Part shown: piece by piece, positions 1,800-23,533 of the stretch
Position numbering within the stretch: position 1 is the first letter of the stretch
How the letters are laid out: each line of letters begins with the position of its first letter
The notes under the pieces: generated by a model
The model's input: the letters and a program-made list of their open reading frames with translations, nothing else
The model's database searches: none
Told to the model about the DNA's origin: nothing
Program-made: the position numbers and the translations under genes
Source of the DNA: Candidatus Falkowbacteria bacterium
GTDB lineage: Bacteria; Patescibacteriota; Patescibacteriia; Patescibacteriales; GWE2-39-37
NCBI GenBank assembly: GCA_013336275.1
Contig: JAAXUA010000001.1
Span: forward strand, 14,167 to 78,166
Direction of reading: 5' to 3'
Length of the DNA stretch: 64,000 nucleotides

Positions 1800-1828
1800 T
1801 TGACACCTCATGATTCGGGGTGTATATT
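1800..1828 (+). promoter_or_regulatory. Sigma-70-type promoter of nrtR
   Basis: TTGACA (1800-1805), 17-nt spacer, TATATT (1823-1828). It lies ~30 nt upstream of ATG 1857. Confidence 0.6.
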
Positions 1829-1847
1829 AGTGTTATATAAACACTAA
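1827..1847. promoter_or_regulatory. Candidate NrtR operator 1 (21-bp palindrome)
   Basis: TTAGTGTTATATAAACACTAA has a GT-N7-AC core with inverted TTAGTGT/ACACTAA arms. It overlaps or abuts the -10 of the nrtR promoter. Confidence 0.55.
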
Positions 1848-2806: not shown

Positions 2807-3898
2807 ATGTCGAAACTGATGAGGCAGAAAATCTTGGAAACGATACTTTTCATTGGCAGGTTCAGCCCGCCCCACAAAGGGCACATCAAGGCGATTCTGG
2901 GGCTCCTAGCAATGTATGACCGGGTGGTCATCGTGCTCGGGAGCTGCTACGAAGTCGGTACGCCAAGGCATCCTTTGCTCGCGATTTATCGGGAAAAGAT
3001 GCTGCTTTACAGCCTGAAGCAGGCCGGAGTGGATATGCGGCGCATCAAGATCGTCCATCTGGAGGACTTCAACAACTGGGAAGCCTGGTGGAAGAAGATC
3101 ATGACGATCTGCAAGCGTTACAGCGCCAAGCAGGTCAGTACTGGCAATGTCGAAGACATCATCGGTCCGTTGACCGAGAAAGGCTTGCTGCCGGATTGGC
3201 TCAAGCTGGTCAACTGCGAAGCTGAACTGCCGGAGCAGTACCGCTACAACTACCGCGCGACCGATTTGCGCAATGCCGTGCTCAGGGGAGATTACCGGAT
3301 GTTTCTGGAAATCGCCGCACCGGGCACGGTCGCGCTGATGGGTAACGTCGGCGGATTCGTCGGCATCAGGCAAGCGCTCGCCAACCAAGGCAAGCGGTTC
3401 GTGCCTGGCCGTCAAGCCGTCGATGCGATTATCGTCACCGAGCATCGCGGCAAGACCTGGATCATGTGCGGCTACCGCAGTCCGGAGAAGCGCAACTTCC
3501 CCGGGTGCCTGGCCATACCGGGTGGCGGTGTCTGGCAGTTCGAAAGTCCGATCGACACGACGTTGAGAGAGGTCAAGCAAGAGACCGGTTTCGAGTTCGT
3601 CATCCTTGATCGTTGCTTGGAACCGGCGCATGTCATGCTCAAAGGCATCGACGTCTTGTGCGAAATGAAGTCGCTCGGCATCTTCTCGACGCCGGACAAG
3701 GGCAAGGCGGGAGACCAAGGCGGCTCATCGCAGCCGTTCCTCTTCCGCCTGGATGTCCATCCGCGCGAGCTCCGTCCGCTGATCAAGGAATCAAGCGAGC
3801 TGTTGCAGGTCGATTTCTACCCCGAAGACTACGTCAAAAAGCAAGGCTTGGCATTCCAGCAGCTCGAAATGGTACAGAAAGCAGGTTATTGCCTGTAA
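2807..3898 (+). CDS. nadM: Bifunctional NMN adenylyltransferase (NadM type) / Nudix ADP-ribose pyrophosphatase
   Basis: GRFSPPHKGH (HxGH nucleotidyltransferase motif) and a RATDLR second motif. C-terminal Nudix box GGGVWQFESPIDTTLREVKQETGF. GGAGG lies 6 nt before ATG 2807. Confidence 0.85.
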   Translation: MSKLMRQKILETILFIGRFSPPHKGHIKAILGLLAMYDRVVIVLGSCYEVGTPRHPLLAIYREKMLLYSLKQAGVDMRRIKIVHLEDFNNWEAWWKKIMTICKRYSAKQVSTGNVEDIIGPLTEKGLLPDWLKLVNCEAELPEQYRYNYRATDLRNAVLRGDYRMFLEIAAPGTVALMGNVGGFVGIRQALANQGKRFVPGRQAVDAIIVTEHRGKTWIMCGYRSPEKRNFPGCLAIPGGGVWQFESPIDTTLREVKQETGFEFVILDRCLEPAHVMLKGIDVLCEMKSLGIFSTPDKGKAGDQGGSSQPFLFRLDVHPRELRPLIKESSELLQVDFYPEDYVKKQGLAFQQLEMVQKAGYCL

Positions 3899-4647: not shown

Positions 4648-4662
4648 TCGAATTGTCGCATC

Positions 4663-4693
4663 GGCGGACGCTTGCACTAAGCAAGCGTCCGCC
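4663..4693 (+). other. Intercistronic GC hairpin
   Basis: 13-bp perfect stem GGCGGACGCTTGC/GCAAGCGTCCGCC with a 5-nt loop. No adjacent U-tract. Confidence 0.5.
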
Positions 4694-4740
4694 ACCCCAA
4701 TTTTAGAAAATTGCGATTGGAAGAATCGGTCGCAGCTTTC

Positions 4741-7455: not shown

Positions 7456-7475
7456 CGCCCAAGCGTCAGCATTTC

Positions 7476-7500
7476 GGCGGAGAGACCAGTTCTCTCCGCC
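7476..7500 (+). other. Intercistronic GC hairpin
   Basis: 10-bp perfect stem GGCGGAGAGA/TCTCTCCGCC with a 5-nt loop. No U-tract. Confidence 0.45.
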
Positions 7501-7589
7501 TCCTTACTGGAGCTGCCGATCGATTCGGCATTTGCAGCAAGGAGGACGACCTTTGAAATAAGAATATCGATTACAGAAAGGAGCGACCC

Positions 7590-10391: not shown

Positions 10392-10497
10392 CTTCACCCA
10401 AGCTTCCGAAGCCATTTCGGGGACTTAGGTGAAGCAGTTCATTACAACAATGAATATATCCGCAATCAAATCCAACCGAGAAAAAAGGAGGAGTACG

Positions 10498-12960: not shown

Positions 12961-12970
12961 GGTCGCAATC

Positions 12971-13007
12971 GGTGCGCGGGGCAAGGCCACAAGCCTGCCC
13001 CCGCACC
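12971..13007 (+). other. Intercistronic GC hairpin
   Basis: 15 bp with two single-nt bulges (GGTGCGcGGGGCAaGGC / GCCTGCCCCCGCACC) and a 5-nt loop. Confidence 0.45.
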
Positions 13008-13109
13008 ATCATTTCATCCATTCTGTCCGGATGCCAAGGCATGCGGCCAGATAAATAAAATGATAAAACGCTCGTTGAAAACAAAATAAATCACAGAAAG
13101 GAAAACGAC

Positions 13110-13736
13110 ATGAAAGAATGGTACGCACAGGAAGTCTACGAAGCCGCGAGAATGATCGCATCAACCGTCCTAGGCAAGCAGCTGCCGCTCGTAGTCTGCA
13201 TAACCGGACCGACTTGTTCCGGCAAAAGCACGCTGGCGGAGGCGCTGGCCAAGGATCCGTTCATGAAGAGCTACCACATCGAGACCATCAGGTATGACGA
13301 TTATATGCGTAATGCCGATGATCCGATGATGCCTAGGCTTGACGGAAAGATCATCTATGATCATCCGCAAGCCTATCATGGCAGCGAGTTCACGTCCCAC
13401 GTCAGAAGCCTGATGCTTGGCCGAAACGCCGAGTCGCCGGTTTATGACACGGTGACAAACCGCCGTACAGCGGCGAAAAGGCCGCTAAAACCTCCGAAAA
13501 TCCTGATTGCCGAAGGCCTGTTCGTCTTCGAGATGGTCAAACATCTTGATGCGCGCAAACTCTTCGTCTATCTCGATGTCTCTTTGGAGGTTTGTCTCAG
13601 CCGGCGCATCGACCGCGACACCAGGCTTTATGCAGTAACCGATGAACAGGTAAAAACAGTTTTCGGTACGCGTGTTTGGCCGATCTGGCAACCGTATGGC
13701 AAAAAACAGAAGGAGATGGCGGAAATTATCCTGTAA
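13110..13736 (+). CDS. P-loop nucleoside kinase of the uridine kinase/phosphoribulokinase family (possible nicotinamide riboside kinase)
   Basis: Walker A ITGPTCSGKSTLAEAL, DHPQAY, LIAEGLF and RRIDRD blocks typical of the Udk family. The NRK role is inferred from context only. Confidence 0.7.
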   Translation: MKEWYAQEVYEAARMIASTVLGKQLPLVVCITGPTCSGKSTLAEALAKDPFMKSYHIETIRYDDYMRNADDPMMPRLDGKIIYDHPQAYHGSEFTSHVRSLMLGRNAESPVYDTVTNRRTAAKRPLKPPKILIAEGLFVFEMVKHLDARKLFVYLDVSLEVCLSRRIDRDTRLYAVTDEQVKTVFGTRVWPIWQPYGKKQKEMAEIIL

Positions 13737-13760: not shown

Positions 13761-14726
13761 ATGACAGCTAATGAAGAGTTGGACGGAGCAGTCAAGCAGA
13801 TCCGCGAATTGTGCGCCCAGTCGCCGTATGCCCAAGGCAAGAATTTTTTCGACCAGTCCTTGAGCAAGCGTCAAGGCGGGCAAGTCGGCGATCGTCATTT
13901 CGAGACGCTGCGCCGCGCCTATCAGGTCGTGTGCCGGGTGGCTGAGGGAGACTATTCCCAGCTGTTCGGCGCCTACATGGCCGACGAGGCCGGCGAAGAA
14001 GAACGGGTGGTGATCAAGATCGTGGACGATCCGGCAGATAACGATCTCCTGCAGAACGAATTGCGGGTGCTCGAGTATCTCCAGGTCCATCCCGGCAGCC
14101 AGCAGAAACATCTGCCCGTTTTGGTCGACCGTTTCGTAACGGGCGGCCAAGGAGGCGAGGATGAATGCCACGGTTCGGTGCTCAAGTATTTTGACGGATT
14201 AGACATCCTGGAAGTCAGGAATCGTCCGAAATTCGCCAAGGGCATGGACCCGTACCACGTCGGCTGGGTCCTCCAGCGGACGTTGAGCGCAGCCGGCTTC
14301 GCGCATTCGTGCGGAGTCGTCCACTGCAACATCGAGCCGGCACACATCATGATACGCCCAAGGAACCATGGCCTTTGCCTGGTCGATTGGAGCTACGCGG
14401 CCATCAACCCGCTGCAGACCGGCGACCGTTACCGGGTGTTCAACGAGATCGGCTATAGCGCTCCCGAAATACGGGACGGCGCCAAGCCTCATCCGTCCGC
14501 TGACCTGTATTCCATCGGCAAGAGCATGGTCGCCCTGTTAGGCGGCAACATCGCAACCGGTGAGATGCCGGGCGCAGTCGACGAGAGGTTCCAGAAACTG
14601 ATCAAGCTGATGATCCTGGAAGACCCGCTAGCTCGGGCGCAAGACGCCTGGGTGATGCACCAGCTATTGAAACCGCTCCGCCAGGAAATCTGGGGCGAGC
14701 ATGAATTCACGCCGCTCGAAGTCTGA
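13761..14726 (+). CDS. Protein-kinase-like protein with HCN in place of the HRD catalytic motif
   Basis: VVIKIV (VAIK Lys), NELRVLEYL (alpha-C Glu), VVHCNIEPAHIMI (codons 14322-14330 = His-Cys-Asn), DWS (DFG-like), YSAPE, DLYSIG. Confidence 0.7.
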   Translation: MTANEELDGAVKQIRELCAQSPYAQGKNFFDQSLSKRQGGQVGDRHFETLRRAYQVVCRVAEGDYSQLFGAYMADEAGEEERVVIKIVDDPADNDLLQNELRVLEYLQVHPGSQQKHLPVLVDRFVTGGQGGEDECHGSVLKYFDGLDILEVRNRPKFAKGMDPYHVGWVLQRTLSAAGFAHSCGVVHCNIEPAHIMIRPRNHGLCLVDWSYAAINPLQTGDRYRVFNEIGYSAPEIRDGAKPHPSADLYSIGKSMVALLGGNIATGEMPGAVDERFQKLIKLMILEDPLARAQDAWVMHQLLKPLRQEIWGEHEFTPLEV

Positions 14727-14750: not shown

Positions 14751-16232
14751 GTGGGAGACGACTTTTACGACGACGATGTTGCTTCAAGGACCCGTTCGAC
14801 CAGAACCGAAGCGTTCCAGCGCAGTACTGGAACCGGCAACCAGCGCACGACGCGCACGACCATCAGCCCGATACTGAACCCTCATGGGGTCAAGAAACGC
14901 GAAGCCCGCGATTCGGCTGATCACCCCAACACCACGCCGATCGTGGTCATCCAGGACGGCACGCTGTCCCGGGGGGAGGATTTCCTCTTCTTGTGGCAGA
15001 AGCTGCCGATGTTCATCGGCCAGATGTATCTCCAGAATTACGTGCCTCATCCGGTGCTGAGCCTGGCCGTTGTCGGCGATATGACCGACAAGGACCGGTT
15101 TCCGCTCCAGGTCTCGCAGTTCGAAGCTGACAACCGTCTCGACGTCGCCATGGAAGAATTCATCATTGAGAAAGGCGGCGGCGGCTCCGGTCAGGAATCT
15201 TACGAGCTGGCGGCATACTTCTACGCCACCAGGTCGGAACTCGACGCTAACAAGCGTGGCGAGAAAGGCTTCTGTTTCATCTTCGGCGACGAGCGCTTTT
15301 ACGAGCATCTCGACCCCAAGCAGCTGAAGGAGCTGTTTGGCGACGACATCGACTACATCATGGATTCGAAGATGGTCTTCGACGCCCTGCAGGAGAAGTA
15401 CCACGTGTTCTTCATCTACACCCGCAAGGCCTGGGCCGAGCGCAAAGCCGGCATCGACGAGGAAATCGCCAAACGTGTCCGCCAGTTCGGTGGCCGCGTC
15501 GACGATGTCGAGATGGGATTTTCGCTTATTTGGCCAACCCAGGACGACCTTGATCTGCGCGTTACCCCGCCGAGCGGCGAGGAGATATACTACGGTCACA
15601 AACGGTCGCGCTGCGGAGGTGAACTGGATGTCGATAAGAATGCCAACCCACCCTATACGACCAAGCCGGTAGAAAACACTGTCTGGGTCAGGGGTACAGC
15701 TCCGGCCGGACGCTACCGCGTTGTCGTACAGAACTACGCCTATCACAGCGGTAATTACAACGCAGTACCGTTCAAGGTGCAGAAGGTAGTTAACGGCGAC
15801 GTCGAATTTTTCGAAGGCAAGACCAAAGCTGGTTCAACCGGCCCTGAAAGCAACGTCCTGTGCTTCGACTTCGACTACGATCCGAGGCAGCGACCGGTAG
15901 ATGATACCGTTTATGCCGCCTACGATGACCAGGCGATTATCGCCCAATGGGCATCGGTTCTGCCGCACGAGCATGTCATGATCATTGATGACCCTCGTGC
16001 CGGTGTCGACCTGATGCTCGGCGCCATGGCCCTGAAATCCGGCTCAGCCGATCTGCGCAAGTATATGGCTGATATGGAGGCCCGAGGACAGGATGAAGAG
16101 CGCATCACCGTAGTTTCAACTGCCTTGAGCAAGCTAGCCAGCGCATCGGCCCCGGTCGCCAAGATCGACGCTTCGGCACTGCCTGACCGCAGCGGTCCGG
16201 CAAACCGCCGGAACCGCACCACCAGGATTTAA
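14751..16232 (+). CDS. vWA-like domain protein with C-terminal YfaP/DUF2135-like beta-sandwich
   Basis: GTG start after GGAGGTG. MIDAS-like DGTLS, GGGGSGQESYELA and FIFGDE. C-terminal IWPTQDDLDLRVTPPSGEEIYYGH..GGELDVDKN..GRYRVVVQNY. Confidence 0.6.
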   Translation: MGDDFYDDDVASRTRSTRTEAFQRSTGTGNQRTTRTTISPILNPHGVKKREARDSADHPNTTPIVVIQDGTLSRGEDFLFLWQKLPMFIGQMYLQNYVPHPVLSLAVVGDMTDKDRFPLQVSQFEADNRLDVAMEEFIIEKGGGGSGQESYELAAYFYATRSELDANKRGEKGFCFIFGDERFYEHLDPKQLKELFGDDIDYIMDSKMVFDALQEKYHVFFIYTRKAWAERKAGIDEEIAKRVRQFGGRVDDVEMGFSLIWPTQDDLDLRVTPPSGEEIYYGHKRSRCGGELDVDKNANPPYTTKPVENTVWVRGTAPAGRYRVVVQNYAYHSGNYNAVPFKVQKVVNGDVEFFEGKTKAGSTGPESNVLCFDFDYDPRQRPVDDTVYAAYDDQAIIAQWASVLPHEHVMIIDDPRAGVDLMLGAMALKSGSADLRKYMADMEARGQDEERITVVSTALSKLASASAPVAKIDASALPDRSGPANRRNRTTRI

Positions 16233-16241
16233 CCGTCCAAA

Positions 16242-16270
16242 CGGACGGGCACGGAATCCGTGCCCGTCCG
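16242..16270 (+). other. Intercistronic GC hairpin
   Basis: 13-bp perfect stem CGGACGGGCACGG/CCGTGCCCGTCCG with a 3-nt loop. No U-tract. Confidence 0.5.
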
Positions 16271-16295
16271 CCAACTTTTCCATCGAGGAGGCTAC

Positions 16296-17240
16296 ATGAA
16301 AATAATCGCCACCCTGCCGCCGCCCCATCAAGCCGACAGGCTCAAAGCGGTGGCCGAACATCCGTTGGTCGAGGAAGCTCGATTCAACGTTGGCATGCGC
16401 ACGCCGTATGGCCCGAAAGAGACATTGGAGCGCCTGCTTGCTGCCATGGGCGGCAAGCCGCTCTGGATCGATCTCAAGGGCCGCCAGCTGCGCATCATGC
16501 AGTGGGCCGTGCCCACCTACGGAGATATCATCCTGAGCCACAAGGTCAAAGTCGACCTGCCCGCCAGGATCGAGTTCCGCGGCGGGCAATATTCAGACAT
16601 CGTCGAAGTTCGGGGCAACCGTATCTTCGTCGAACCGGACCCGCCCAGCGCCCTCGGTCGCGGCCAGTCCGTCAATATCCATGGTGAAAACCTGGAAATC
16701 GACGGCTATCTGACCCGTGAAGACAAAGCCTACATCAAGGCAGCCAAAGAACTTGGCATCCACCGCTACATGCTGTCCTTCGTCGAAGGCAGTCAGGATA
16801 TCGAGGATGTGTTTGCTCTCGACTCCAAGGCTGAGATGATTGCCAAGATCGAATCCTTGAAAGGTCTCGCCTACATCGGAACCCTGGAGTTCAACGAGTA
16901 TGTCGCTCTAAACATCGTACGTCCGATGGCGGCCAGGGATGACCTGTACGCCAATATCGGACAGGATAAATTCCGTATTTTCTCCGCTCTGCAATCTATC
17001 ATCAATTCCACGTCGGAGGCCATCGTCGCTTCGCGTCTCTGCGAGTCGCTCCGAAAGAGTACTGAGCCGAGCCTGAGCGATCTGGCTGACCTGATGCTTC
17101 TGCGTCAGATCGGCTACCGTGAATTCATGCTCTCTGACGAACTTTGCAAGGATACTGACGCTTTCTTACGCGCCATGGAAACCTTGGCAGTACTTGGAGA
17201 ACGGACGCGAGACACGGTCAGTCGGATTACGCTCGACTGA
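16296..17240 (+). CDS. Pyruvate-kinase-like TIM-barrel protein lacking the PK C-terminal domain
   Basis: Collinear with the PK A/B domains: KIIATLPP, ARFNVGMR, IDLKGRQLRI, LTREDKAYI..LSFV, IAKIES, AARDDLYANIG, ASRLCESL..PSLSDLADL. SD GAGGAGG lies before ATG 16296. Confidence 0.7.
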   Translation: MKIIATLPPPHQADRLKAVAEHPLVEEARFNVGMRTPYGPKETLERLLAAMGGKPLWIDLKGRQLRIMQWAVPTYGDIILSHKVKVDLPARIEFRGGQYSDIVEVRGNRIFVEPDPPSALGRGQSVNIHGENLEIDGYLTREDKAYIKAAKELGIHRYMLSFVEGSQDIEDVFALDSKAEMIAKIESLKGLAYIGTLEFNEYVALNIVRPMAARDDLYANIGQDKFRIFSALQSIINSTSEAIVASRLCESLRKSTEPSLSDLADLMLLRQIGYREFMLSDELCKDTDAFLRAMETLAVLGERTRDTVSRITLD

Positions 17241-17271: not shown

Positions 17272-18636
17272 ATGGCTGATAAGATCATCGTCGTCACCGG
17301 CCTAAGTTTCGGTGACGAAGGCAAGGGAACGATAACGGAGTACATGGCACAGCGTCATTCAGCCGGATGCGTCGTTCGCTATAACGGCGGACCGCAGGCG
17401 GCCCACAACGTCGTGCTCCAGAACCAGCTGCACCATTGCTTCGCGCAATTCGGTTCAGCGACTTTCCAACATGGCGTCAAAACCTTTCTGTCAGAACAGA
17501 CAGTAGTGAACCCCATTTCCTTATTATCTGAAGCAGACACGCTTTCAGAGCAGGGGGTCACAGACGCGCTGGAACGGCTGATTGCCAGTCCCTCGTGCCT
17601 GGTAGCGACCCCGTTCCACAAACACCATAACCGCATGCTGGAATTGGCGCGCGGCAACGCCCGCCACGGCAGCTGCGGCATGGGAGTCGGACAGACCATA
17701 AGCGATGCCCGCTACTTGGGCAACATGGCCTTACGTCTCGGCGATCTCAACGACAGCGAAAAAGCGAGGCACAAGCTCGATTTCCTCTGGCGCCTGAAGA
17801 TCGACCAAGCAGAGCAGCTGCTCGCCAAACATACCGGCAATCAAGCATTGCGCCAGGAGTTTGACTTGCTAGCCGCTCCTGGCTATGTCGAAGACGTGTT
17901 TGAGGCTTACGCTTCAATCGCGTCCCGGCTCAATATCAGCGATCAGCCGCCTACAAGCGGCACACTGGTATTCGAAGGAGCGCAAGGCATGCTTCTTGAT
18001 AACACCTACGGTTTTCATCCGCACGTCGCAAAATCTGACGTCAGCCCCAGGGCAGCCGTCCGTTTGGCAACCAAGCATTGGCCAGGCCATGAGATCATCA
18101 GAGTCGGCGTGCTCCGCGCTTATGCTACCCGCCACGGCGCCGGACCATTCGTGACAGAGGATATCATTCTTGCTGAAGCGATTCCGGACAGGCACAACAG
18201 CTTCGGTGATTGGCAAGGACGCTTCCGCGTCGGCTGGTTCGATCTCGTAGCTGCAAGCTACGCTATCGAAGCCTCGGGCGGAATCGATTGCCTAGCCCTG
18301 ACCAACCTGGATCGCATCAGCGATTTCGGGGTAGTCAAGCTTTGCATCGGTTATGAGTATTCCGGCGACCAGCCGCTCGATGAAGATTTCGAGTGGCGTC
18401 AATTCGGCGGGCGAAAAGTGATAGAAAGGATTAAGGCAGACGCTAATCCTAGCACGGAGAAGCAGGCGGCATTGTCCGGCATCCTCTATGATTGCCGTCC
18501 CATATACCGCACCTTGTCCATCAGGGACCCAAAAGCCTACGTCCAGCGCTTGGAAACAGCGCTCGGCGTTCCTGTCGCTATCGTCTCATCCGGACCGACA
18601 CTTCAAGATAAGGAGGAAATTTATAGCTTATTTTAG
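17272..18636 (+). CDS. Adenylosuccinate synthetase-like protein, divergent
   Basis: GLSFGDEGKGTITEYM (P-loop GDEGKG), RYNGGPQAAHNVV, GSCGMGVGQTISDA, EGAQGMLLDNTYGFHPHV, YATRHGAGPFVTE. Several substrate-contact motifs differ from canonical PurA. Confidence 0.8.
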   Translation: MADKIIVVTGLSFGDEGKGTITEYMAQRHSAGCVVRYNGGPQAAHNVVLQNQLHHCFAQFGSATFQHGVKTFLSEQTVVNPISLLSEADTLSEQGVTDALERLIASPSCLVATPFHKHHNRMLELARGNARHGSCGMGVGQTISDARYLGNMALRLGDLNDSEKARHKLDFLWRLKIDQAEQLLAKHTGNQALRQEFDLLAAPGYVEDVFEAYASIASRLNISDQPPTSGTLVFEGAQGMLLDNTYGFHPHVAKSDVSPRAAVRLATKHWPGHEIIRVGVLRAYATRHGAGPFVTEDIILAEAIPDRHNSFGDWQGRFRVGWFDLVAASYAIEASGGIDCLALTNLDRISDFGVVKLCIGYEYSGDQPLDEDFEWRQFGGRKVIERIKADANPSTEKQAALSGILYDCRPIYRTLSIRDPKAYVQRLETALGVPVAIVSSGPTLQDKEEIYSLF

Positions 18637-18682: not shown

Positions 18683-18711
18683 TTGACAAATTACCGTAAA
18701 TAGGTTAAAGT
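18683..18711 (+). promoter_or_regulatory. Sigma-70-type promoter inside the island
   Basis: TTGACA (18683-18688), 17-nt spacer, TAAAGT (18706-18711). This predicts a ~130-nt leader before ATG 18848. Confidence 0.55.
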
Positions 18712-18847: not shown

Positions 18848-20035
18848 ATGGAACAGCTCTTGGCAAGAATCGCAGCATTCGCAGCAGCAGTCAGTAAGAC
18901 GGTCGAAGAAGTGACCGAGGCTCTCAAGCAGTACCTCGGCGAGTTCAACGACAGTACCGCTGAAATCCTGGCAGATGAGGCTTCCACCCCGATCGAAGAC
19001 CTGAAGCCTGTCCTGACCGACGACGGTCCCAAGATCCCGCTGCCCGTCCTGAAGTTCAACCTCTACCTGCTGCGCGGCAAAGAGAAAGTGGCCGAACAAC
19101 CGGCTGCCGCTCCCGTACCCGCCGCAGCACCCGCTGCCTCCGGCTTCGCCACCGACGTCCTGCCGGCCGTTCCCGACGATGACAGCTTCCTTGAAGCGCT
19201 CAAAGTCGGCGGCGTCCTGCGCGTCGGTACCACCGAAGTCATCTGCGCCATCCGCTCGGCCCTCGCCAACCGGGTCGGTCTCTATGACCTGCCCAAAGTC
19301 CTGCTCAAGCTGATCGAAGAAAAGGCGATAAAGTCCCGCAAGCCCAGCGGCCCCGAGTACTACGAGCTCCAGAAGCTCGTGACCCAGCGTTCCTACGCCG
19401 AGATTTTCCGCGCCCTCGAAGTTCCGGGCGAATTCGCCACCGAAGGCCGCAAAAACCAGCTGCTCGACCGCATCGATCCGACTCTCTGGGACGCCCTTTT
19501 CAGCTTCCAGAACCAGCTGATCGGCTGGCGCGACTCCTGGTCCGCCGGCATGGCCAATCCGATGATGATGTTCAGTGTCATGGCCATGGGTTCCGCCGGT
19601 CAGCCTTTGCCCCCCGGCATGATGACCCCGCCCGACACCGCTCCGCTCCGCGATGCGGCCGAGAGCGTGATCGAAACGATCAACGCCGTCTTCGCCGGTC
19701 CGAGCATCCCGATCGTCCGCGCCTTGGCCTGGGACGCCCAGCGCGTCAAGAAGCTCTTGACCGATGAGCGCCTTCCGGCCGCCTGCGGTGCCGTCGACGC
19801 GGAGCAGATGCTCCTCGACCTCGACGTGGCCGTCACCTCCGATTACATCCGCCTGGAACGCTCGATTGTCCGCTACGCCCTCGGCATCATGGAGTACCCG
19901 AAAGTCACTCCGGGCAACGAGGAGTATAATTACGTCGGCGCCCTCTTGCAGCTCGGCCTGAGCATCCCCTGGGACAAGCTCCCGGAACGCTCCGACAAGA
20001 ACGGCAAGAAGAAAGCGGGATTCGAGAAATTCTAG
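18848..20035 (+). CDS. Hypothetical protein (no recognisable domain; Pro/Ala-rich linker)
   Basis: 395-codon ORF preceded by SD AAAGGAGAA. It has its own promoter and terminator. I recognise no motif in it. Confidence 0.7.
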   Translation: MEQLLARIAAFAAAVSKTVEEVTEALKQYLGEFNDSTAEILADEASTPIEDLKPVLTDDGPKIPLPVLKFNLYLLRGKEKVAEQPAAAPVPAAAPAASGFATDVLPAVPDDDSFLEALKVGGVLRVGTTEVICAIRSALANRVGLYDLPKVLLKLIEEKAIKSRKPSGPEYYELQKLVTQRSYAEIFRALEVPGEFATEGRKNQLLDRIDPTLWDALFSFQNQLIGWRDSWSAGMANPMMMFSVMAMGSAGQPLPPGMMTPPDTAPLRDAAESVIETINAVFAGPSIPIVRALAWDAQRVKKLLTDERLPAACGAVDAEQMLLDLDVAVTSDYIRLERSIVRYALGIMEYPKVTPGNEEYNYVGALLQLGLSIPWDKLPERSDKNGKKKAGFEKF

Positions 20036-20128: not shown

Positions 20129-21151
20129 ATGCCCATGGGAAGCGGATGTTCACGAGACTCATATGAAGAAAGCTTTTCGCGCACCAAGAAGGCCTTTACC
20201 GGCGATGCTGGTACTCGAGCCAAAGAAAGTGAAGCCCGCGGAGAGCGGATACACCGTGCCAAGGAGACCGTAACCGAAGAGAAGCACGAGGAAACGAGAG
20301 AAGAGAAGGTCGACCCCAGCAAGATCAGGCTCGGCATCACCAAGCCAAGCACGACCGCCAAGAGGGTCCATATCTTCCTGGTCGACAACTCCGGCTCCAA
20401 CCGGGCGATCGCTGAAGGGCTGCGCAAGTCATCGGGTTATCTTTCCGCCGTTCACGGCGTAATCGACCCCGAATCAGACTTTGCCAATATCTTTTTCAGC
20501 GACCACTGCGACGGTTCGCGCATCATGCAGGAAGTGGATTACGTGCCGCCGACACCCGAAGGCGACCTGATCCTGCTCTCGACCATTTCCCGGATCTATC
20601 CCGCCGGTGGCGGCGATGCTCCGGAAGCGATCGAGTGCGCCATGAAGCGCGCTTGCGAGCTCGACTTCGGCGGCGCCCTGTACAAGCACCTTTATCTCGT
20701 CAGTGACGAAGTGGCGCATGGCATGGGCAGATCAGGAGACGACGGCTGTCCGCTCCAGGTCAACTGGCGCGACGAGCTCGAGCGAGTCCACGAGACTTAT
20801 GACACCTTTGAGGTGATCGGCTGCGGCAATGAAGCCAAAGTAGCTGAGCTGCAGAAAAAATTCCTGAGTCCCGAACGCCTGGCCTACGATTTTATCGACC
20901 TTTCAGCCATCAAGGAACACGAGCACCGGCTCGGCATCACTGCCAACGCCATCCTGTTCCTGGTAGCGCGCAAGCAGGGAATCCAGATGGTCGAGGTCTT
21001 CCTGGCCGGCCTGTATGAGAAATGGCTGGCCAGTCCAGTCTTCGGAGCAAACACCGAAATGAAAGCCAAGGAAGCCATCCGGCGTTTCGGCAAATACCTC
21101 GAAGCGCCTGAAAGCGAGATCGAGGCGATGATGCAACGCGTGCTGGTGTAA
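20129..21151 (+). CDS. vWA domain protein (paralog of the N-terminal part of 14751-16232)
   Basis: MIDAS DNSGS, AGGGDAPEAIECA, YLVSDEVAHG. SD AAAGGAG upstream. The start is either ATG 20129 or ATG 20135. The track start at 20051 lies in the terminator. Confidence 0.65.
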   Translation: MPMGSGCSRDSYEESFSRTKKAFTGDAGTRAKESEARGERIHRAKETVTEEKHEETREEKVDPSKIRLGITKPSTTAKRVHIFLVDNSGSNRAIAEGLRKSSGYLSAVHGVIDPESDFANIFFSDHCDGSRIMQEVDYVPPTPEGDLILLSTISRIYPAGGGDAPEAIECAMKRACELDFGGALYKHLYLVSDEVAHGMGRSGDDGCPLQVNWRDELERVHETYDTFEVIGCGNEAKVAELQKKFLSPERLAYDFIDLSAIKEHEHRLGITANAILFLVARKQGIQMVEVFLAGLYEKWLASPVFGANTEMKAKEAIRRFGKYLEAPESEIEAMMQRVLV

Positions 21152-21216: not shown

Positions 21217-23511
21217 GTGAGCAGACAGTATAAAAGAAGACGGATGCTAGCAACGCTTACGCGTTATTACTTAGCGCCGGGCTTGCAGTCGATCGATCAG
21301 CAATTCGTTGAGAAATTCAAGGATAATCCGAAACGACAGTCAAACGAAGCTAGCGAACTCGCCGGCCTAGCTTACCTGGCGTTCGTCGACCTTGACCCCA
21401 GAGCTGCCGAAGGCGCTATCGAACACTTCGTACGCTCAGGTAGGGCAGACTTTTTGGCCGAGCTTTATCGCTTAGCCAAGCTGCGCCGCCATTTCCGCTT
21501 GGTCTGGTTCGCCGGACAAGCGCTCGGTTTGGCTGACTGGCAGAGCGAGTTTACGGAATGGTTCAAGGATGAAGGCCTCTGGTGGTTCGATCTCTTCGAA
21601 GACCGCGGTACAGGTCATGGCTACATTCATCCGGACGACACCGCCCTTATCGGTCTGATTGTCCAGAAACTGGGACTTGGCGATTCTTTCTGGCAAGAAG
21701 TCAGGCGTCAAGCCGAGTCGCGCCAGGAAATACCGCTGTTGCGCCGCCGCCTGGTCAGCCTATTGGCTGGACGGGAGGAGCCGGCAATCCAGGAAGTCGG
21801 ACAGAAAGATGATCAAACAGACCGAACGTTCAGGCAGTTCTGCTCGGAACAAGGCATTCGCATCCTGCGTTGCCTGCAAACCGGCAGACGCGGCCTCAGC
21901 GCATGCAGCTGGGTCTATCAGGCGCTCGACAACGATGGCGTCATCAAGATTTTCAAGGAGGTGATCGAACCCGAAGGAAGGATGCCGCATTCCGAAAGCG
22001 AGGAAGCCGTTTACAGCAATCTGGGTGAGTGTGATTTCTTGCCCGAGCCGTATGAGACCGAAACAGTCAGCCAGAACTGCAATTTTTTGCGCCAGCCCTT
22101 CATCTATGGGCAGTCTCTTGCGCCCTTTGTTGCAGCCAAGCGCAAAATGAGTCTAGAACAGGCAAAAAAAATAATCAGTTCGGCCGCAGAGAAACTGGCT
22201 CAGCTCCACCGTTCAGGCGTTGCCCATCTGGATTTGCGCCCGGAACATATCATCGTTGCACCTGAAGGTCTGGCCATCCTCGATCTGGGCTTGTCACGCC
22301 TCGTGCCTGACCGATCAGCCATGGTCGATGTCGTCTTGCGTTCGCCGCGCTATGCCGCTCCAGAGATGGGGCTTCATGGGCAAGGTGGCTGCGCCACAGA
22401 CATCTTTCAGCTCGGCCTGGTCTTTTATGAGCTTCTCACCGGTCGCCACCCCTTCTGCCTTCATCGGAATCTTCCGGAAGGCGACGAGGATAAAGCTGGT
22501 GAAATCATCAAGTATTTGGTGCCAGCCATGGCGCTTGATTTCAAAGATGATTTAGCAAGGGTGTTTGATGATCCGCAACTGGATATCCTTCGGCAGATGT
22601 TAGACAAAGAACCCGGGAGACGTCCGACAGCAGAAGAAGTGGCTGAGGCTTTGCGAAGCAGTGAGGCCGTTGAATACGCGCCGATGCCGTTGGTTGAAGC
22701 CAGAGGCAATACGAAAGAGGCTAACACGGTCTTGTTTCCGGCGCGCATGTCCATTCCGCATCACGGCCACATCGAATATATCGCCCGCCTGGTGGAGCTC
22801 GGCTATTACGTCAAGATTTCGCTGCAGTGCAGCTATATCCTGACCGAGCACGACCCGGTTCCCAAATGGCTGACCATGAAGATGGTGGCTCAATCGCTCT
22901 TTGATCGGGGTATCAGTCGGGAAAATTTCGAGTTCGTTTTTACGCCGCTCTACGCGACGAGGCACGAATTAGACATACACTTCCGTATGATGCCCGGATG
23001 GGAAAACGTAATCGCAGTCGCCTCCGGCAATCCGGAGGTCCATGTCCTGTTTCCTGGCAAGCTGATTTTGGACCAGAAGTCCGTCTTCGGCCGAGAACAG
23101 GTACAGTATGAGAACCGCTCTTGGGGCGAGTCATTGCGCCAGAGCATCAGGGAGGGGGATCAAGCTGCCTTCAAGGAGCTTGCAGGCAGCGGCGTTGAAC
23201 GCATACTCAGTTTCAATGAGTTGCAACAATTCCTTAAGGTCAAACAGCCGATTCCTTTCGTCAGCAGCCGTGTCAGCGTCCATCTGGTGAATTCCAAAAG
23301 GGAAGCATTGGCCGCCACCCGATCATTCCGTTACCTTTCCCCGGAAGAAAGCCTGTGCCGCTGGTTTCATGGCATCGGCATTAAGGCGTCTGTCTTGGAC
23401 CCATATGCCAAGGAGACGACCCTGCTCATTAAAGGCAAGCTGATGCGCCTCAAGTATCGGCAAATAGAATTCGAGCACGGCAACGAAATTATCGTGTTCG
23501 AAAGCGCCTAA
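21217..23511 (+). CDS. Three-part protein: helical N-terminal region + Ser/Thr-kinase-like domain + C-terminal NadM-like nucleotidyltransferase
   Basis: GTG start after AAGGAGGTGA. Kinase: VIKIFKE, VAHLDLRPEHIIV, ILDLGLSR, PRYAAPE. C-terminus: ARMSIPHHGHIEYIARL and ESLRQSIREGD, alignable with GRFSPPHKGHIKAILGL and TDLRNAVLRGD of the nadM product. Confidence 0.75.
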   Translation: MSRQYKRRRMLATLTRYYLAPGLQSIDQQFVEKFKDNPKRQSNEASELAGLAYLAFVDLDPRAAEGAIEHFVRSGRADFLAELYRLAKLRRHFRLVWFAGQALGLADWQSEFTEWFKDEGLWWFDLFEDRGTGHGYIHPDDTALIGLIVQKLGLGDSFWQEVRRQAESRQEIPLLRRRLVSLLAGREEPAIQEVGQKDDQTDRTFRQFCSEQGIRILRCLQTGRRGLSACSWVYQALDNDGVIKIFKEVIEPEGRMPHSESEEAVYSNLGECDFLPEPYETETVSQNCNFLRQPFIYGQSLAPFVAAKRKMSLEQAKKIISSAAEKLAQLHRSGVAHLDLRPEHIIVAPEGLAILDLGLSRLVPDRSAMVDVVLRSPRYAAPEMGLHGQGGCATDIFQLGLVFYELLTGRHPFCLHRNLPEGDEDKAGEIIKYLVPAMALDFKDDLARVFDDPQLDILRQMLDKEPGRRPTAEEVAEALRSSEAVEYAPMPLVEARGNTKEANTVLFPARMSIPHHGHIEYIARLVELGYYVKISLQCSYILTEHDPVPKWLTMKMVAQSLFDRGISRENFEFVFTPLYATRHELDIHFRMMPGWENVIAVASGNPEVHVLFPGKLILDQKSVFGREQVQYENRSWGESLRQSIREGDQAAFKELAGSGVERILSFNELQQFLKVKQPIPFVSSRVSVHLVNSKREALAATRSFRYLSPEESLCRWFHGIGIKASVLDPYAKETTLLIKGKLMRLKYRQIEFEHGNEIIVFESA

Positions 23512-23533
23512 CCCTGGTTAGGCGCTTTTTTTT
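23503..23533 (+). terminator. Strong intrinsic terminator closing the long + strand block
   Basis: Stem AGCGCCTAA/TTAGGCGCT, loop CCCTGG, then a T8 run. It overlaps the stop codon. Confidence 0.85.

What the first reader, a model, noticed from the sequence alone, without database searches (positions are those of the whole stretch)
21217..23511. Ser/Thr-kinase-like domain fused to a paralog of the cluster's own NMN adenylyltransferase
Seen: the central domain has VIKIFKE, HLDLRPEH, DLG and YAAPE. The C-terminal ~260 aa carry ARMSIPHHGHIEYIARLVELGYYVKISLQ and SWGESLRQSIREGDQAAFKELAGSGV. These align directly with GRFSPPHKGHIKAILGLLAMYDRVVIVLG and RATDLRNAVLRGDYRMFLEIAAPGTV of the nadM product at 2807-3898. 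A ~225-aa helical N-terminal region precedes them. Inference: this fusion physically couples protein phosphorylation to synthesis, or sensing, of an adenylylated pyridine or other nucleotide. I am not aware of a described kinase-NMNAT fusion.
Basis: partly seen in the sequence, partly recalled or inferred. Interest (0 to 1): 0.65.

Follow-up and report, generated by a model that had tools for sequence, protein, structure and literature searches.

The report
Protein kinase fused to NadM-derived domain
This is a real, conserved gene of ultra-small (CPR/Patescibacteria) bacteria in which an intact Ser/Thr protein kinase is permanently joined to a diverged copy of the NAD-making enzyme NadM; it sits in a gene module predicted to be controlled by the NAD regulator NrtR, so it probably links NAD/nucleotide status to protein phosphorylation, but its chemistry is untested.

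Summary
ORF 21217-23511 (+) encodes one 764-aa protein. It has a poorly conserved N-terminal region, a Hanks-type kinase (Pfam Pkinase, E 1e-25) and a 270-aa C-terminal module.

No Pfam or NCBIfam model recognises the C-terminal module. An AlphaFold model (pLDDT 94) matches NadM and archaeal NMNAT structures best. Profile-profile comparison with NadM gives E 1e-29, and that alignment runs on into the Nudix domain. The module is therefore a whole NadM: an NMNAT domain that keeps its ATP motifs, plus a shortened Nudix half that has lost its catalytic box.

The fusion is no artefact. About 110 protein clusters (50% identity) and 25 species-representative genomes, nearly all labelled or inferred Patescibacteria, carry it.

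The fusion gene always follows a MIDAS-bearing vWA gene and usually a helical-protein gene. A pseudokinase, a second vWA-like gene, a PK-barrel-like gene and a PurA-like gene are often adjacent. Palindromes of the NrtR-operator type precede these genes in five genomes.

The mechanism is inferred only. The segment that aligns with the region I recall as the NMN pocket is not conserved, so a sensor or an altered-substrate adenylyltransferase is more likely than NAD synthesis. I found no published description. I rate it a new variant of known kinds.

The parts
21217..23511 (+). Whole fusion gene (764 aa): N-terminal region, Hanks-type kinase, NadM-derived module
   Evidence: ORF list. 100% identical to P0001, 'protein kinase [Ca. 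Falkowbacteria bacterium]'. Full-length homologues at 34-64% identity. About 110 clusters with the same architecture.
21217..21891 (+). N-terminal region (res 1-225), function unknown
   Evidence: No family hit. Few conserved positions among 49 full-length members. Appears absent in L031, where there is almost no room between the vWA-like and kinase matches, and about 100 aa in L030. Helicity not tested.
21946..22644 (+). Ser/Thr protein kinase domain (Pfam match res 244-476)
   Evidence: Pkinase E 1.1e-25. Among 49 full-length members: K247 in at least 90%, E262, D339, D356, P382-E383 and R469 in 49/49, Asn344 in 42/49 (His in the window's clade). The Gly-rich loop is degenerate.
22714..23256 (+). 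Archaeal/NadM-type NMNAT-like nucleotidyltransferase domain (res about 500-680)
   Evidence: AF2 pLDDT 94. Foldseek best hits are NadM and archaeal NMNAT. PARMGIPHxGHI, ASxNP and SWGxxLR are conserved in 79 sequences. hhalign E 1.3e-29 against NadM.
23257..23508 (+). Vestigial Nudix domain (res about 681-764)
   Evidence: hhalign of the whole module runs to NadM residue 292, through the Nudix box. The tail alone against NadM 239-292 gives probability 88.8%, E 2.5e-6. The catalytic REx2EE and the Gly loop are absent. The model shows b-b-a-b-b-b-b.
23500..23529 (+). Terminator-like hairpin at the stop codon of the fusion gene
   Evidence: 13-bp stem (6 G-C pairs) followed by a T run. This is a consensus scan only; the total count in the region is not above shuffles.
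20135..21151 (+). Constant upstream partner: vWA-domain protein with intact MIDAS motif (D84, S86, S88)
   Evidence: Directly upstream of the fusion gene in every locus with enough flank except L030, where two small ORFs intervene. AF2 pLDDT 92. Best Foldseek hits are vWA domains: SpaC, integrin beta chains, ANTXR2, vWF A3, plus TFIIH complex chains that I take to be the p44/Ssl1 vWA subunit. Invariant DNSGSN.
18848..20035 (+). Usual second partner: 395-aa protein of unknown fold
   Evidence: Found next to the vWA gene in 16 distinct loci, downstream of the fusion gene in L031, and upstream of the vWA gene with two ORFs between them in L030. No Pfam or PDB-sequence relative.
18683..18711 (+). 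Best sigma-70-like promoter match, upstream of the three-gene unit
   Evidence: TTGACA-17-TAAAGT, 10 of 12. Consensus match only.
13761..14726 (+). Pseudokinase (Pk2), first gene of the frequently linked second half of the module
   Evidence: Pkinase E 2e-10. The catalytic-loop Asp is replaced by N, A or G in all 9 orthologues, and the DFG Asp is not conserved. Linked to the module in L001, L002, L005, L006, L009, L010, L014 and L021.
14751..16232 (+). Second vWA-like protein with an inserted domain
   Evidence: Alignment A7: the L002 orthologue has a canonical DVSGSMG motif; GGGG..ESY and GDE are conserved. Assigned from motifs only, no structure.
16260..17240 (+). Pyruvate-kinase-barrel-like protein
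   Evidence: Pfam PK barrel E 2e-8. NCBIfam pyruvate kinase 47 bits against a cut-off of 432.
17272..18636 (+). Divergent adenylosuccinate-synthetase-like ligase
   Evidence: Adenylsucc_synt E 9e-72, but 209 bits against the PurA cut-off of 402. The GDEGKG loop is kept. By my reading from memory of E. coli PurA, the Asp-loop motif GxTTGR corresponds to GDWQGR here. Linked to the module in 8 loci.
2807..3898 (+).
   Evidence: CTP_transf_like and NUDIX. NCBIfam NMNAT/ADPR pyrophosphatase families. It equals P0248, found by the C-terminal profile at E 6.9e-4.
1827..1847 (.). Candidate NrtR operator (perfect 21-bp palindrome TTAGTGT-N7-ACACTAA) upstream of nrtR (1857-2531)
   Evidence: It fits '21-bp palindrome, core GT-N7-AC' (PMC2330246).
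2577..2597 (.). Second candidate NrtR operator, upstream of nadM
   Evidence: One mismatch to the palindrome.

Best explanation
The gene encodes a three-part signalling protein specific to Patescibacteria (CPR). A catalytically competent Hanks-type Ser/Thr kinase carries, at its C-terminus, a domesticated copy of a whole NadM enzyme. In that copy the NMNAT half keeps the ATP-binding and catalytic motifs of HIGH-superfamily nucleotidyltransferases. The segment aligning with what I recall as the NMN pocket is changed, and the Nudix half has decayed to an 85-aa stub.

The protein works as the last gene of a conserved unit (helical protein, MIDAS-vWA protein, kinase-NadM-like protein). That unit is frequently joined to a pseudokinase, a second vWA-like protein, a PK-barrel-like protein and a PurA-like ligase. 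The whole set belongs to the predicted NrtR regulon, which responds to ADP-ribose.

Proposed mechanism:
- Inferred: when NAD is being broken down, ADP-ribose lifts NrtR repression and the module is made.
- Inferred: the NadM-derived module binds ATP and a phosphorylated nucleotide-like ligand other than NMN, and probably still transfers AMP to it.
- Inferred: occupancy or turnover at that site is coupled to the kinase, which phosphorylates module partners; the vWA proteins are the obvious candidates.

Shown here: the domain identities, motif conservation, the permanence of the fusion, gene linkage, and the position of the operators. Not shown: any activity, ligand or substrate.
For: One ORF with conserved architecture:
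- 5 near-full-length homologues at 34-65% identity.
- 17 more in which every sequence that extends upstream shows a kinase C-lobe.
- 124 clusters at 50% identity, most of the longer ones 550-790 aa with the domain at the C-terminus, the shorter ones apparently fragments from short contigs.
- 25 loci in species-representative genomes, with the kinase directly upstream in each locus that has upstream sequence.

Kinase catalytic residues are conserved in 49 of 49 or nearly so.

The C-terminus derives from NadM:
- Foldseek best hits are NadM and archaeal NMNAT.
- hhalign gives E 1.3e-29 over 251 columns, extending through the Nudix box.
- The best PDB-sequence hits of the profile are all archaeal NMNAT, though weak at E about 0.08.
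- The closest non-fused relatives are CPR NadM proteins.

Internal control: within one polypeptide the Nudix catalytic box is lost while PHxGH, R510 and SWGxxLR stay near-invariant in 79 sequences. This points to selection on nucleotide binding or transfer.

Partners:
- The vWA gene is always adjacent.
- The triad persists when its order is permuted (L031) and when the kinase and NMNAT-like parts are separate ORFs (L030).

Link to NAD:
- NrtR-type palindromes lie upstream of the triad in L005 and L006.
- They lie between nrtR and the head of the module in L009, L010 and L021.
- One lies before the ARH gene downstream of the fusion gene in L010.
- In total there are 10 sites against a mean of 2.15 in shuffles. 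The motif type is as in PMC2330246.
Against: - No activity, ligand or substrate is known.
- Pfam and NCBIfam nucleotidyltransferase models do not detect the C-terminal domain.
- In the window's own clade the Mg-binding Asn of the kinase is His (7 of 49 sequences), and the Gly-rich loop is degenerate.
- In this window no NrtR-type palindrome lies directly upstream of the triad.
- The operator shuffles preserved only mononucleotide composition, and the operator is a prediction.
- Conserved catalytic motifs argue against a purely passive sensor, so the sensor and enzyme readings cannot be separated.
- No phosphatase partner was identified. I looked only at genes 72-27366 of the window.
Confidence: 0.4

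Rival explanations
1. Two-step tandem enzyme. The kinase makes a phosphomonoester on a common substrate, and the NMNAT-like domain then transfers AMP onto that phosphate. This is the logic of NadR, RibF and HldE. The substrate could be a small molecule or, more radically, a phospho-Ser/Thr of a partner protein.
For: - HIGH-family enzymes of this branch use a phosphomonoester as nucleophile (established biochemistry, from my own knowledge).
- Both active sites are conserved.
- The fusion is obligate in nearly all members.
- The NMN-pocket-aligned segment is changed, which implies a different acceptor.
- An ARH-type hydrolase gene with its own NrtR-type site follows the fusion gene in L010, and a shorter ARH-like match follows it in L008.
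Against: - The kinase has the APE motif, the DxxxxG helix and the subdomain-XI Arg typical of protein kinases rather than small-molecule kinases.
- No precedent is known to me for adenylylation of a phosphoprotein by a HIGH-family enzyme.
- A linker of about 30 residues gives no evidence of channelling.
Confidence: 0.15
2. Genuine third NMN/NaMN adenylyltransferase whose NAD-synthesising activity is switched by the attached kinase through autophosphorylation.
For: - The fold and the ATP motifs are those of NMNAT.
- The gene lies at the end of a long NAD-salvage gene array in this window.
- NrtR-type regulation is seen in relatives.
Against: - The genome already encodes NadM and a NadD domain fused to NadE.
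- The segment that in NadM reads DF..W..WW is replaced by TP(L/F)..T....HF in the family. Its role in nicotinamide binding is from my memory of the NMNAT structures and was not verified.
- No NMNAT family model scores the domain.
Confidence: 0.15
3. The NadM-derived module is a catalytically silent scaffold, for dimerisation or partner docking. The protein is then simply a vWA-associated Ser/Thr kinase, like the TerY-type vWA-kinase-phosphatase triads.
For: - The Nudix half is clearly degenerate.
- Enzyme-derived domains are often reused as scaffolds.
- Linkage of a standalone vWA gene with a kinase and a PP2C phosphatase is a described theme (PMC7159879).
Against: - Near-invariance of R510, H515, G517, H518, S635-G637 and R641 over sequences as low as about 35% identical is hard to explain without nucleotide binding.
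- No PP2C gene was seen next to the triad.
Confidence: 0.15
4. Part of a conflict or defence system that reacts to NAD depletion, for example by phage-triggered NADases or toxins, rather than a housekeeping regulator.
For: - vWA domains, kinases and pseudokinases, and nucleotide-handling enzymes are typical parts of conflict systems (PMC7159879).
- Induction by ADP-ribose through NrtR would fit a response to NAD cleavage.
- One relative lies on a contig that IMG/VR lists as viral (L031).
Against: - PADLOC gives only generic kinase hits.
- There is no match in 50,697 phage genomes.
- The chromosomal context is stable and recurrently next to NAD genes across CPR lineages, with no obvious effector domain.
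- The L031 contig is 416 kb and carries the same triad, so it is probably cellular.
Confidence: 0.12
5. Artefact: two genes merged by a frameshift or misassembly.
For: One relative (L030) has the kinase and the NMNAT-like part as overlapping ORFs in different frames.
Against: There is a continuous ORF in the window and in dozens of independent assemblies from NCBI, JGI, ENA and Logan. The linker is alignable across homologues.
Confidence: 0.01

Closest known systems
[quoted passage not shown]
   Same: Same fold and same domain order (NMNAT, then Nudix). GRxxPxHxGH and SxxxxR motifs are present. It is the best structural and profile match.
   Different: Here the module is the C-terminal appendage of a protein kinase. 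The Nudix box and about half of the Nudix domain are lost. The NMN-pocket-aligned segment is replaced, and new invariant residues appear (DPxPKW, Q620, FG).
Archaeal NMNAT (M. thermautotrophicum 1EJ2/1M8x/4YP5-7, M. jannaschii 1F9A)
   Same: TM 0.77-0.84, rmsd 2.9-4.4 A over about 178 columns. RMxPxHxGH is almost identical.
   Different: The archaeal enzyme is a single-domain protein. Sequence similarity is marginal (E about 0.08 against PDB sequences).
NadR (HTH + NMNAT + ribosylnicotinamide kinase)
   Same: An NMNAT-family domain fused to a kinase in a protein that also has a regulatory role in NAD metabolism (PMC2330246 and PMC9503650).
   Different: The NadR kinase is a P-loop small-molecule kinase placed C-terminal to the NMNAT. 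Here the kinase is a Hanks-type protein kinase placed N-terminal to it. There is no HTH domain.
NrtR and the TRPM2 NUDT9H domain (Nudix domains turned into ADP-ribose sensors)
   Same: These are precedents for NAD-pathway enzyme domains that lost catalysis and became ligand-sensing modules of regulators (PMC2330246; PMC4974056, listed).
   Different: In those cases the Nudix domain is the sensor. Here the Nudix part is truncated, and the preserved part is the nucleotidyltransferase.
vWA + Ser/Thr kinase (+ PP2C) gene triads of actinobacteria and Ter-linked systems
   Same: A standalone MIDAS-vWA gene lies next to an active protein-kinase gene (PMC7159879).
   Different: No PP2C phosphatase was found. 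The kinase carries a NadM-derived domain. Further partners are a pseudokinase, a second vWA-like protein, a PurA-like ligase and a PK-barrel-like protein. The system is restricted to Patescibacteria.

Membership tests
Hanks-type (eukaryote-like) Ser/Thr protein kinase, Pfam PF00069 | Score above the Pfam gathering threshold | tested here: met
   90.9 bits against 31.7, E 1.1e-25, residues 244-476.
Hanks-type (eukaryote-like) Ser/Thr protein kinase, Pfam PF00069 | Catalytic residues: beta3 Lys, alphaC Glu, catalytic-loop Asp and Asn, DFG Asp, APE, subdomain-XI Arg | tested here: met
   K247 in at least 90%; E262, D339, D356, PE and R469 in 49 of 49; Asn344 in 42 of 49. The window's protein has His at that position (HLDLRPEH).
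Hanks-type (eukaryote-like) Ser/Thr protein kinase, Pfam PF00069 | Glycine-rich GxGxxG loop | tested here: not met
   The Pfam match starts at profile position 30. The loop region is not conserved and is partly deleted in P0005.
Hanks-type (eukaryote-like) Ser/Thr protein kinase, Pfam PF00069 | Phosphotransfer to protein Ser/Thr | not testable with these tools
   Needs an enzyme assay.
HIGH-superfamily nucleotidyltransferase / archaeal-type NMNAT | Detected by family models (Pfam CTP_transf_like PF01467; NCBIfam NMNAT models) | tested here: not met
   No hit at E <= 1 for residues 497-764. The same searches do detect the window's NadM.
HIGH-superfamily nucleotidyltransferase / archaeal-type NMNAT | Rossmann-like NMNAT fold | tested here: met
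   AF2 pLDDT 94. Foldseek against archaeal NMNAT gives TM 0.77-0.84 on target length, probability 1.00.
HIGH-superfamily nucleotidyltransferase / archaeal-type NMNAT | (H/T)xGH motif, the preceding Arg, and the C-terminal SxxxxR (ISSTxxR-type) motif | tested here: met
   PaRmGiPHxGHi and SWGxxLR are conserved at 90% or more in 79 sequences. They align with GRFSPPHKGH and ATDLR of NadM.
HIGH-superfamily nucleotidyltransferase / archaeal-type NMNAT | Residues of the nicotinamide/NMN pocket | tested here: not met
   The NadM segment hlpDF..d..WW aligns with TP(f)..T..e..mHF. That these NadM residues contact nicotinamide is from my memory of 1EJ2 and 2QJO; the structure paper was not available.
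HIGH-superfamily nucleotidyltransferase / archaeal-type NMNAT | NMN/NaMN + ATP -> NAD/NaAD activity | not testable with these tools
   Needs an enzyme assay.
NadM (NMNAT-Nudix bifunctional enzyme) | NMNAT domain followed by a Nudix domain in one chain | tested here: met
   hhalign aligns query 2-254 with NadM 6-292, across the domain boundary. The tail alone gives probability 88.8%.
NadM (NMNAT-Nudix bifunctional enzyme) | Intact Nudix box GX5EX7REUXEEXGU | tested here: not met
   The aligned segment reads RYxtPEesLxrxLxxxG. The Gly loop is deleted and there are no conserved catalytic Glu residues. It is therefore not a NadM in the functional sense.
vWA domain (the adjacent partner, 20135-21151) | vWA fold with a MIDAS DxSxS motif | tested here: met
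   The top 50 Foldseek hits are vWA-containing chains, the best with E 6e-5 to 1e-3 and TM on target up to 0.69. D84, S86 and S88 are invariant in 39 sequences. Pfam itself gives no hit for this protein.
NrtR regulon | 21-bp palindromic operator with a GT-N7-AC core upstream of the operon | tested here: inconclusive
   Present upstream of the module in L005, L006, L009, L010 and L021, and upstream of nrtR and nadM in the window. Not present directly upstream of the triad in the window. NrtR binding was not tested.

The most novel reading that the evidence does not exclude
The kinase and the NadM-derived adenylyltransferase act one after the other on a protein, most plausibly the adjacent vWA partner. 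Ser/Thr is first phosphorylated, and AMP is then transferred onto that phosphate. The product would be a protein-linked ADP (pyrophosphate-linked adenylylation), a post-translational modification not described so far. It could be reversed by the co-regulated ADP-ribosylglycohydrolase-like enzyme, and the whole cycle would be switched on through NrtR when ADP-ribose signals NAD breakdown.
Probability: 0.06. Interest if true: 0.95.

Novelty: new variant of a known kind. Interest (0 to 1): 0.62.

Why it matters
CPR/Patescibacteria have tiny genomes and depend on salvaged cofactors, yet they keep this seven-gene module across distant lineages and place it under the predicted NAD regulator. That argues for an important and so far unknown layer of NAD or adenine-nucleotide control.

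For enzymology, it offers a NadM-type nucleotidyltransferase with intact ATP chemistry but a rebuilt acceptor-side segment, hard-wired to a protein kinase. This is a direct lead either to a new nucleotide ligand or product, or to a nucleotide-gated bacterial kinase.

For annotation, about 110 protein clusters now labelled only 'protein kinase' or 'hypothetical' gain a domain assignment: NMNAT-like plus vestigial Nudix, with a MIDAS-vWA partner and a pseudokinase. Current Pfam and NCBIfam models miss these assignments.

Tried and rejected
- Family models. Pfam and NCBIfam scans of the C-terminal module gave nothing at E <= 1. phmmer of the single sequence against PDB sequences gave nothing; only the profile gave weak NMNAT hits.
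- Defence system. PADLOC returned only generic kinase-domain matches (PD-T4-6, mad6, MkoA). I do not take these as membership of any defence system.
- Phage origin. There was no tblastn match in 50,697 phage genomes. Of two IMG/VR loci, one is a 416-kb contig with the same triad, probably cellular. The other is an ordinary NadM-like gene next to an NAD kinase.
- Frameshift artefact. Rejected, see the rival explanations.
- Small-molecule kinase reading of the kinase domain. Judged unlikely because of the APE, DxxxxG and subdomain-XI features and a strong Pkinase score against weak APH and Kdo scores.
- Partner proteins. Profiles of unk395 and of the vWA partner against PDB sequences gave only chance-level hits. 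A Pfam scan of the 16 unk395 orthologues gave nothing consistent.
- Literature. Four full-text searches aimed at the fusion, and reading of two comparative-genomics papers, found no description of it. A search for 'ivWA' was uninformative. The NadM structure paper could not be retrieved.
The afdb50 fold library was unavailable.
- Window-specific NrtR site. A search for an NrtR-type palindrome directly upstream of the triad in this window found none.


Full report
**1. The observation**

ORF 21217..23511 (+) is an uninterrupted 764-aa frame. An AGGAGG sequence lies a few bases before its GTG start (sequence printed). The protein is identical to a database entry named only 'protein kinase [Candidatus Falkowbacteria bacterium]', from a 338-kb contig (P0001). 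That record starts nine codons later. Homologues P0002 and P0003 align from the longer start.

**2. Domain identities**

*Kinase.* Pfam Pkinase matches residues 244-476 at E 1.1e-25, 90.9 bits against a gathering score of 31.7. I aligned 49 full-length family members.
- Present in 49 of 49: the alphaC Glu (E262), the catalytic Asp (D339), the DFG Asp (D356), the PE of APE, and the subdomain-XI Arg (R469).
- The beta3 Lys (K247) is present in at least 90%.
- The catalytic-loop Asn is present in 42 of 49. It is His in the window's own clade (HLDLRPEH).
- The Gly-rich loop is degenerate, and the first 225 residues are poorly conserved.

*C-terminal module.* Residues 497-764 gave no Pfam or NCBIfam hit at E <= 1, and single-sequence phmmer found no PDB relative. 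Homology to NadM is nevertheless solid.
- BLASTP against the window's NadM: 25% identity over 201 columns, E 3e-8.
- A five-sequence profile had archaeal NMNATs as its six best PDB-sequence hits, at E about 0.08.
- An AlphaFold2 model from a 22-sequence alignment reached pLDDT 94 and pTM 0.92.
- Foldseek against the PDB put NadM (2QJO, 2R5W, 2QJT; E 3e-8) and archaeal NMNATs (TM 0.77-0.84 on target length, rmsd 2.9-4.4 A) on top. ATP sulfurylase and PPAT came far behind.
- A 79-sequence profile of the module against a 6-sequence NadM profile gave hhalign probability 99.8% and E 1.3e-29 over 251 columns.

That last alignment runs from the HxGH motif to NadM residue 292, which is through the Nudix box. 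The last 87 residues alone align with NadM 239-292 at probability 88.8%, E 2.5e-6.

The module is therefore a whole NadM, not just an NMNAT. About 180 residues are NMNAT-like. About 85 residues are a b-b-a-b-b-b-b stub in which the Gly loop is deleted. In that stub the Nudix box has become RYxtPEesLxrxLxxxG, with no conserved catalytic glutamates.

The NMNAT half, in contrast, keeps PaRmGiPHxGHi, ASxNP and SWGxxLR at 90% or more in 79 sequences. The NadM segment DF..d..WW aligns with TP(f)..T..e..mHF. From memory I take that NadM segment to line the nicotinamide pocket; I could not obtain the structure paper. New invariant residues also appear, such as DPxPKW.

My reading is that nucleotide (ATP) handling is under selection and that the second substrate is probably not NMN.

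**3. Not an artefact, and how widespread**

- Five proteins share the full architecture at 34-65% identity.
- A profile search with the module found 17 more. Every one that extends upstream shows a kinase C-lobe.
- An exhaustive HMMER search of 1.84 billion representatives found 124 clusters, 93 of them at E <= 1e-30. Most of the longer ones are 550-790 aa with the module at the C-terminus. The shorter ones appear to be fragments from short contigs.
- The weak end of that list consists of ordinary NadM proteins of 360-400 aa. It includes the window's own NadM (P0248, E 6.9e-4) and a closer one, P0230 (E 2.6e-15).
- P0230 is the NadM of an NAD operon (NadM, NAD kinase, NAPRTase) in a CPR MAG that also has the fusion.

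The fused module is therefore an old, diverged offshoot of CPR NadM, not a recent copy of the neighbouring gene.

In species-representative genomes, 25 loci carry it. They are labelled Falkowbacteria, Uhrbacteria, Shapirobacteria, Minisyncoccota, 'Saccharibacteria' or Patescibacteria. Some 'uncultured Gammaproteobacteria' labels on binchicken MAGs look like placeholders, which is my inference. One 33%-identity hit is labelled Bacteroidales.

One relative (L030) has the kinase and the NMNAT-like part as overlapping ORFs in different frames. This is either a natural split or an assembly error.

**4. Gene context**

I ran tblastn with the window's proteins against all loci.
- The kinase domain lies directly upstream of the module in each locus that has upstream sequence.
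- The 338-aa protein encoded at 20135-21151 lies directly upstream of the fusion gene wherever the flank exists.
- The 395-aa protein encoded at 18848-20035 is usually upstream of that.
- In L001, L005, L006, L009, L010, L021 and L023 (and, lacking the PK-barrel-like gene, in L002; partly in L014), a block of four further genes is adjacent: Pk2 (13761), unk493 (14751), a PK-barrel-like gene (16260) and a PurA-like gene (17272).
- The triad survives a change of gene order (L031) and survives the split version (L030).

*The constant partner.* It is a vWA protein. Its AF2 model has pLDDT 92. All of the top 50 Foldseek hits are vWA-containing chains. The MIDAS residues D84, S86 and S88 are invariant in 39 sequences. 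It has at least 125 database clusters, all unnamed.

*The other module genes.*
- Pk2 is a pseudokinase. Its catalytic-loop Asp is N, A or G in all nine orthologues.
- unk493 looks like a second vWA-like protein with an inserted domain (motifs only).
- The PurA-like protein scores half the PurA cut-off. Its Asp-binding loop appears altered, judged from my memory of the E. coli PurA motif.
- The PK-barrel-like protein is far below the pyruvate-kinase cut-offs.

*Transcription signals.* A 13-bp terminator-like hairpin with a T run sits on the stop codon of the fusion gene (23500-23529). The best promoter-like match of the region lies upstream of unk395 (18683-18711). The triad may therefore be its own transcription unit. 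These are consensus scans, and their total counts are not above shuffles.

**5. Link to NAD**

In the window the module follows a long co-directional NAD array. In order, the array is: NrtR, NadM, PncA, an ADP-ribosylglycohydrolase, PncB, an NAD-kinase-like gene, a PRPP-synthetase-like gene, a NadE-NadD fusion, and a uridine-kinase-like gene.

A perfect 21-bp palindrome, TTAGTGT-N7-ACACTAA, lies upstream of nrtR (1827-1847). A one-mismatch copy lies upstream of nadM (2577-2597). No other copy was found in the 64 kb. This is the form described for NrtR operators: a 21-bp palindrome with a GT-N7-AC core, with binding relieved by ADP-ribose (PMC2330246).

In the related loci the same palindrome (two mismatches or fewer) occurs in these places:
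- upstream of the unk395-vWA-fusion triad in L005 and L006;
- between nrtR and Pk2 in L009, L010 and L021;
- upstream of nrtR in L010 and L021;
- before the ARH gene that follows the fusion gene in L010.

This makes 10 sites against a mean of 2.15 (maximum 5) in mononucleotide shuffles. Most lie in intergenic positions. The module is thus a predicted member of the NrtR regulon in at least five genomes. In the window itself no site lies directly before the triad.

**6. How it most likely works**

Shown:
- an active-looking protein kinase is permanently fused to a NadM-derived module whose ATP motifs are kept and whose Nudix half has decayed;
- a MIDAS-vWA partner is always adjacent;
- the pseudokinase, vWA-like, PurA-like and PK-barrel-like genes are frequently linked;
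- NrtR-type operators precede the module in relatives.

Inferred: the module is expressed when ADP-ribose signals NAD breakdown. The NadM-derived part binds ATP and a non-NMN phospho-ligand, and probably still transfers AMP. This is coupled to phosphorylation of module partners.

I give this model 0.4. The rivals are:
- a two-step kinase-then-adenylyltransferase enzyme (0.15);
- a kinase-regulated true NMNAT (0.15);
- a silent scaffold on a vWA-associated kinase (0.15);
- a conflict system responding to NAD depletion (0.12);
- an artefact (0.01).

PADLOC gave only generic kinase hits. Phage genomes gave no match.

**7. Comparison with what is known**

The closest relatives and analogues are:
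- NadM itself (same fold and domain order, but here without a Nudix box and attached to a kinase);
- archaeal NMNAT;
- NadR (NMNAT plus a P-loop kinase plus HTH);
- NrtR and the TRPM2 NUDT9H domain, as examples of NAD-pathway domains turned into sensors;
- vWA-kinase-PP2C triads.

Targeted full-text searches and two comparative-genomics papers on vWA systems and NAD-ADPr systems do not mention a protein-kinase-NadM fusion. Absence from this library is not proof of absence elsewhere.

**8. Verdict**

I class the finding as a new variant of known kinds: a bacterial Hanks kinase with a new, enzyme-derived domain, set in a new vWA-kinase module tied to NAD regulation. Interest is 0.62. The domain and context findings are robust and surprising for specialists in NAD metabolism and CPR biology. 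The function remains to be shown.

Noticed in passing
window 13761-14726: Second protein-kinase-like gene (Pk2) is a predicted pseudokinase. The catalytic-loop Asp is N, A or G in all 9 orthologues, and the DFG Asp is not conserved.
   Followed up: partly
window 14751-16232: Protein without a Pfam hit that looks like a second vWA domain. The L002 orthologue has DVSGSMG, and GGGG..ESY and GDE are conserved. Long forms have an inserted domain of about 150 aa (DLDLHV...CGGELDVDxNA...), and short forms lack it.
   Followed up: partly
window 17272-18636 (ORF listed from 17119): Adenylosuccinate-synthetase-like gene scoring half the PurA cut-off. The Asp-binding loop GxTTGR appears to be replaced by GDWQGR, and TKLD by TNLD (motif identities from memory of E. 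coli PurA). It is tightly linked to Pk2 and the vWA-like gene in 8 loci, so it may not be a housekeeping PurA.
   Followed up: partly
window 16260-17240: 326-aa protein matching only the barrel domain of pyruvate kinase (47 bits against a cut-off of 432). It is part of the conserved module in 5 distinct loci.
   Followed up: no
window 10429-12960: Three-domain fusion: CN-hydrolase, NAD synthetase (NadE) and a NadD-type NaMN adenylyltransferase (residues 649-843). The window therefore holds three HIGH-family NMNAT-like domains in all.
   Followed up: no
window 1827-1847 and 2577-2597: Candidate NrtR operators (21-bp palindrome TTAGTGT-N7-ACACTAA) upstream of nrtR and nadM. The same motif is found upstream of the kinase module in L005, L006, L009, L010 and L021.
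   Followed up: yes
window 4648-4700, 7456-7510, 12961-13010: G+C-rich inverted repeats without T runs sit in the intergenic gaps after pncA, pncB and nadE-nadD. They could be attenuators or RNA-stability elements inside the long co-directional array.
   Followed up: no
window 20135-20170 and 14751-14790; alignments A5 and A7: Both vWA-type proteins of the module start with a conserved short motif (MSGxSYxxY / MGxxxY...) followed by a charged stretch. In the AF2 model of the first one, this region forms a helical hairpin (pLDDT about 90). I considered it as a possible kinase target but did not test this.
   Followed up: no
L030:5067-6714: In one distant relative the kinase (326 aa) and the NMNAT-like part (237 aa) are separate ORFs overlapping by 47 nt in different frames. 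A protein with Pfam ivWA domains lies between the unk395-like and vWA genes.
   Followed up: partly
L010:11102-12148 and L008:11231-11599: An ADP-ribosylglycohydrolase-like match lies directly downstream of the fusion gene (full length in L010, a short 123-aa match in L008). In L010 it is preceded by its own NrtR-type palindrome (L010:10939).
   Followed up: partly
window 13110-13736: Uridine-kinase/PRK-family protein below the udk cut-off (108 bits against 180), placed between the NAD genes and the module. It could be a nicotinamide-riboside kinase, which is speculation on my part.
   Followed up: no
L032:8001-8228 and 11229-11864: A 93-kb IMG/VR viral contig carries an ordinary NadM-like gene near an NAD-kinase-like gene. 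This is phage NAD salvage and is unrelated to the fusion.
   Followed up: no
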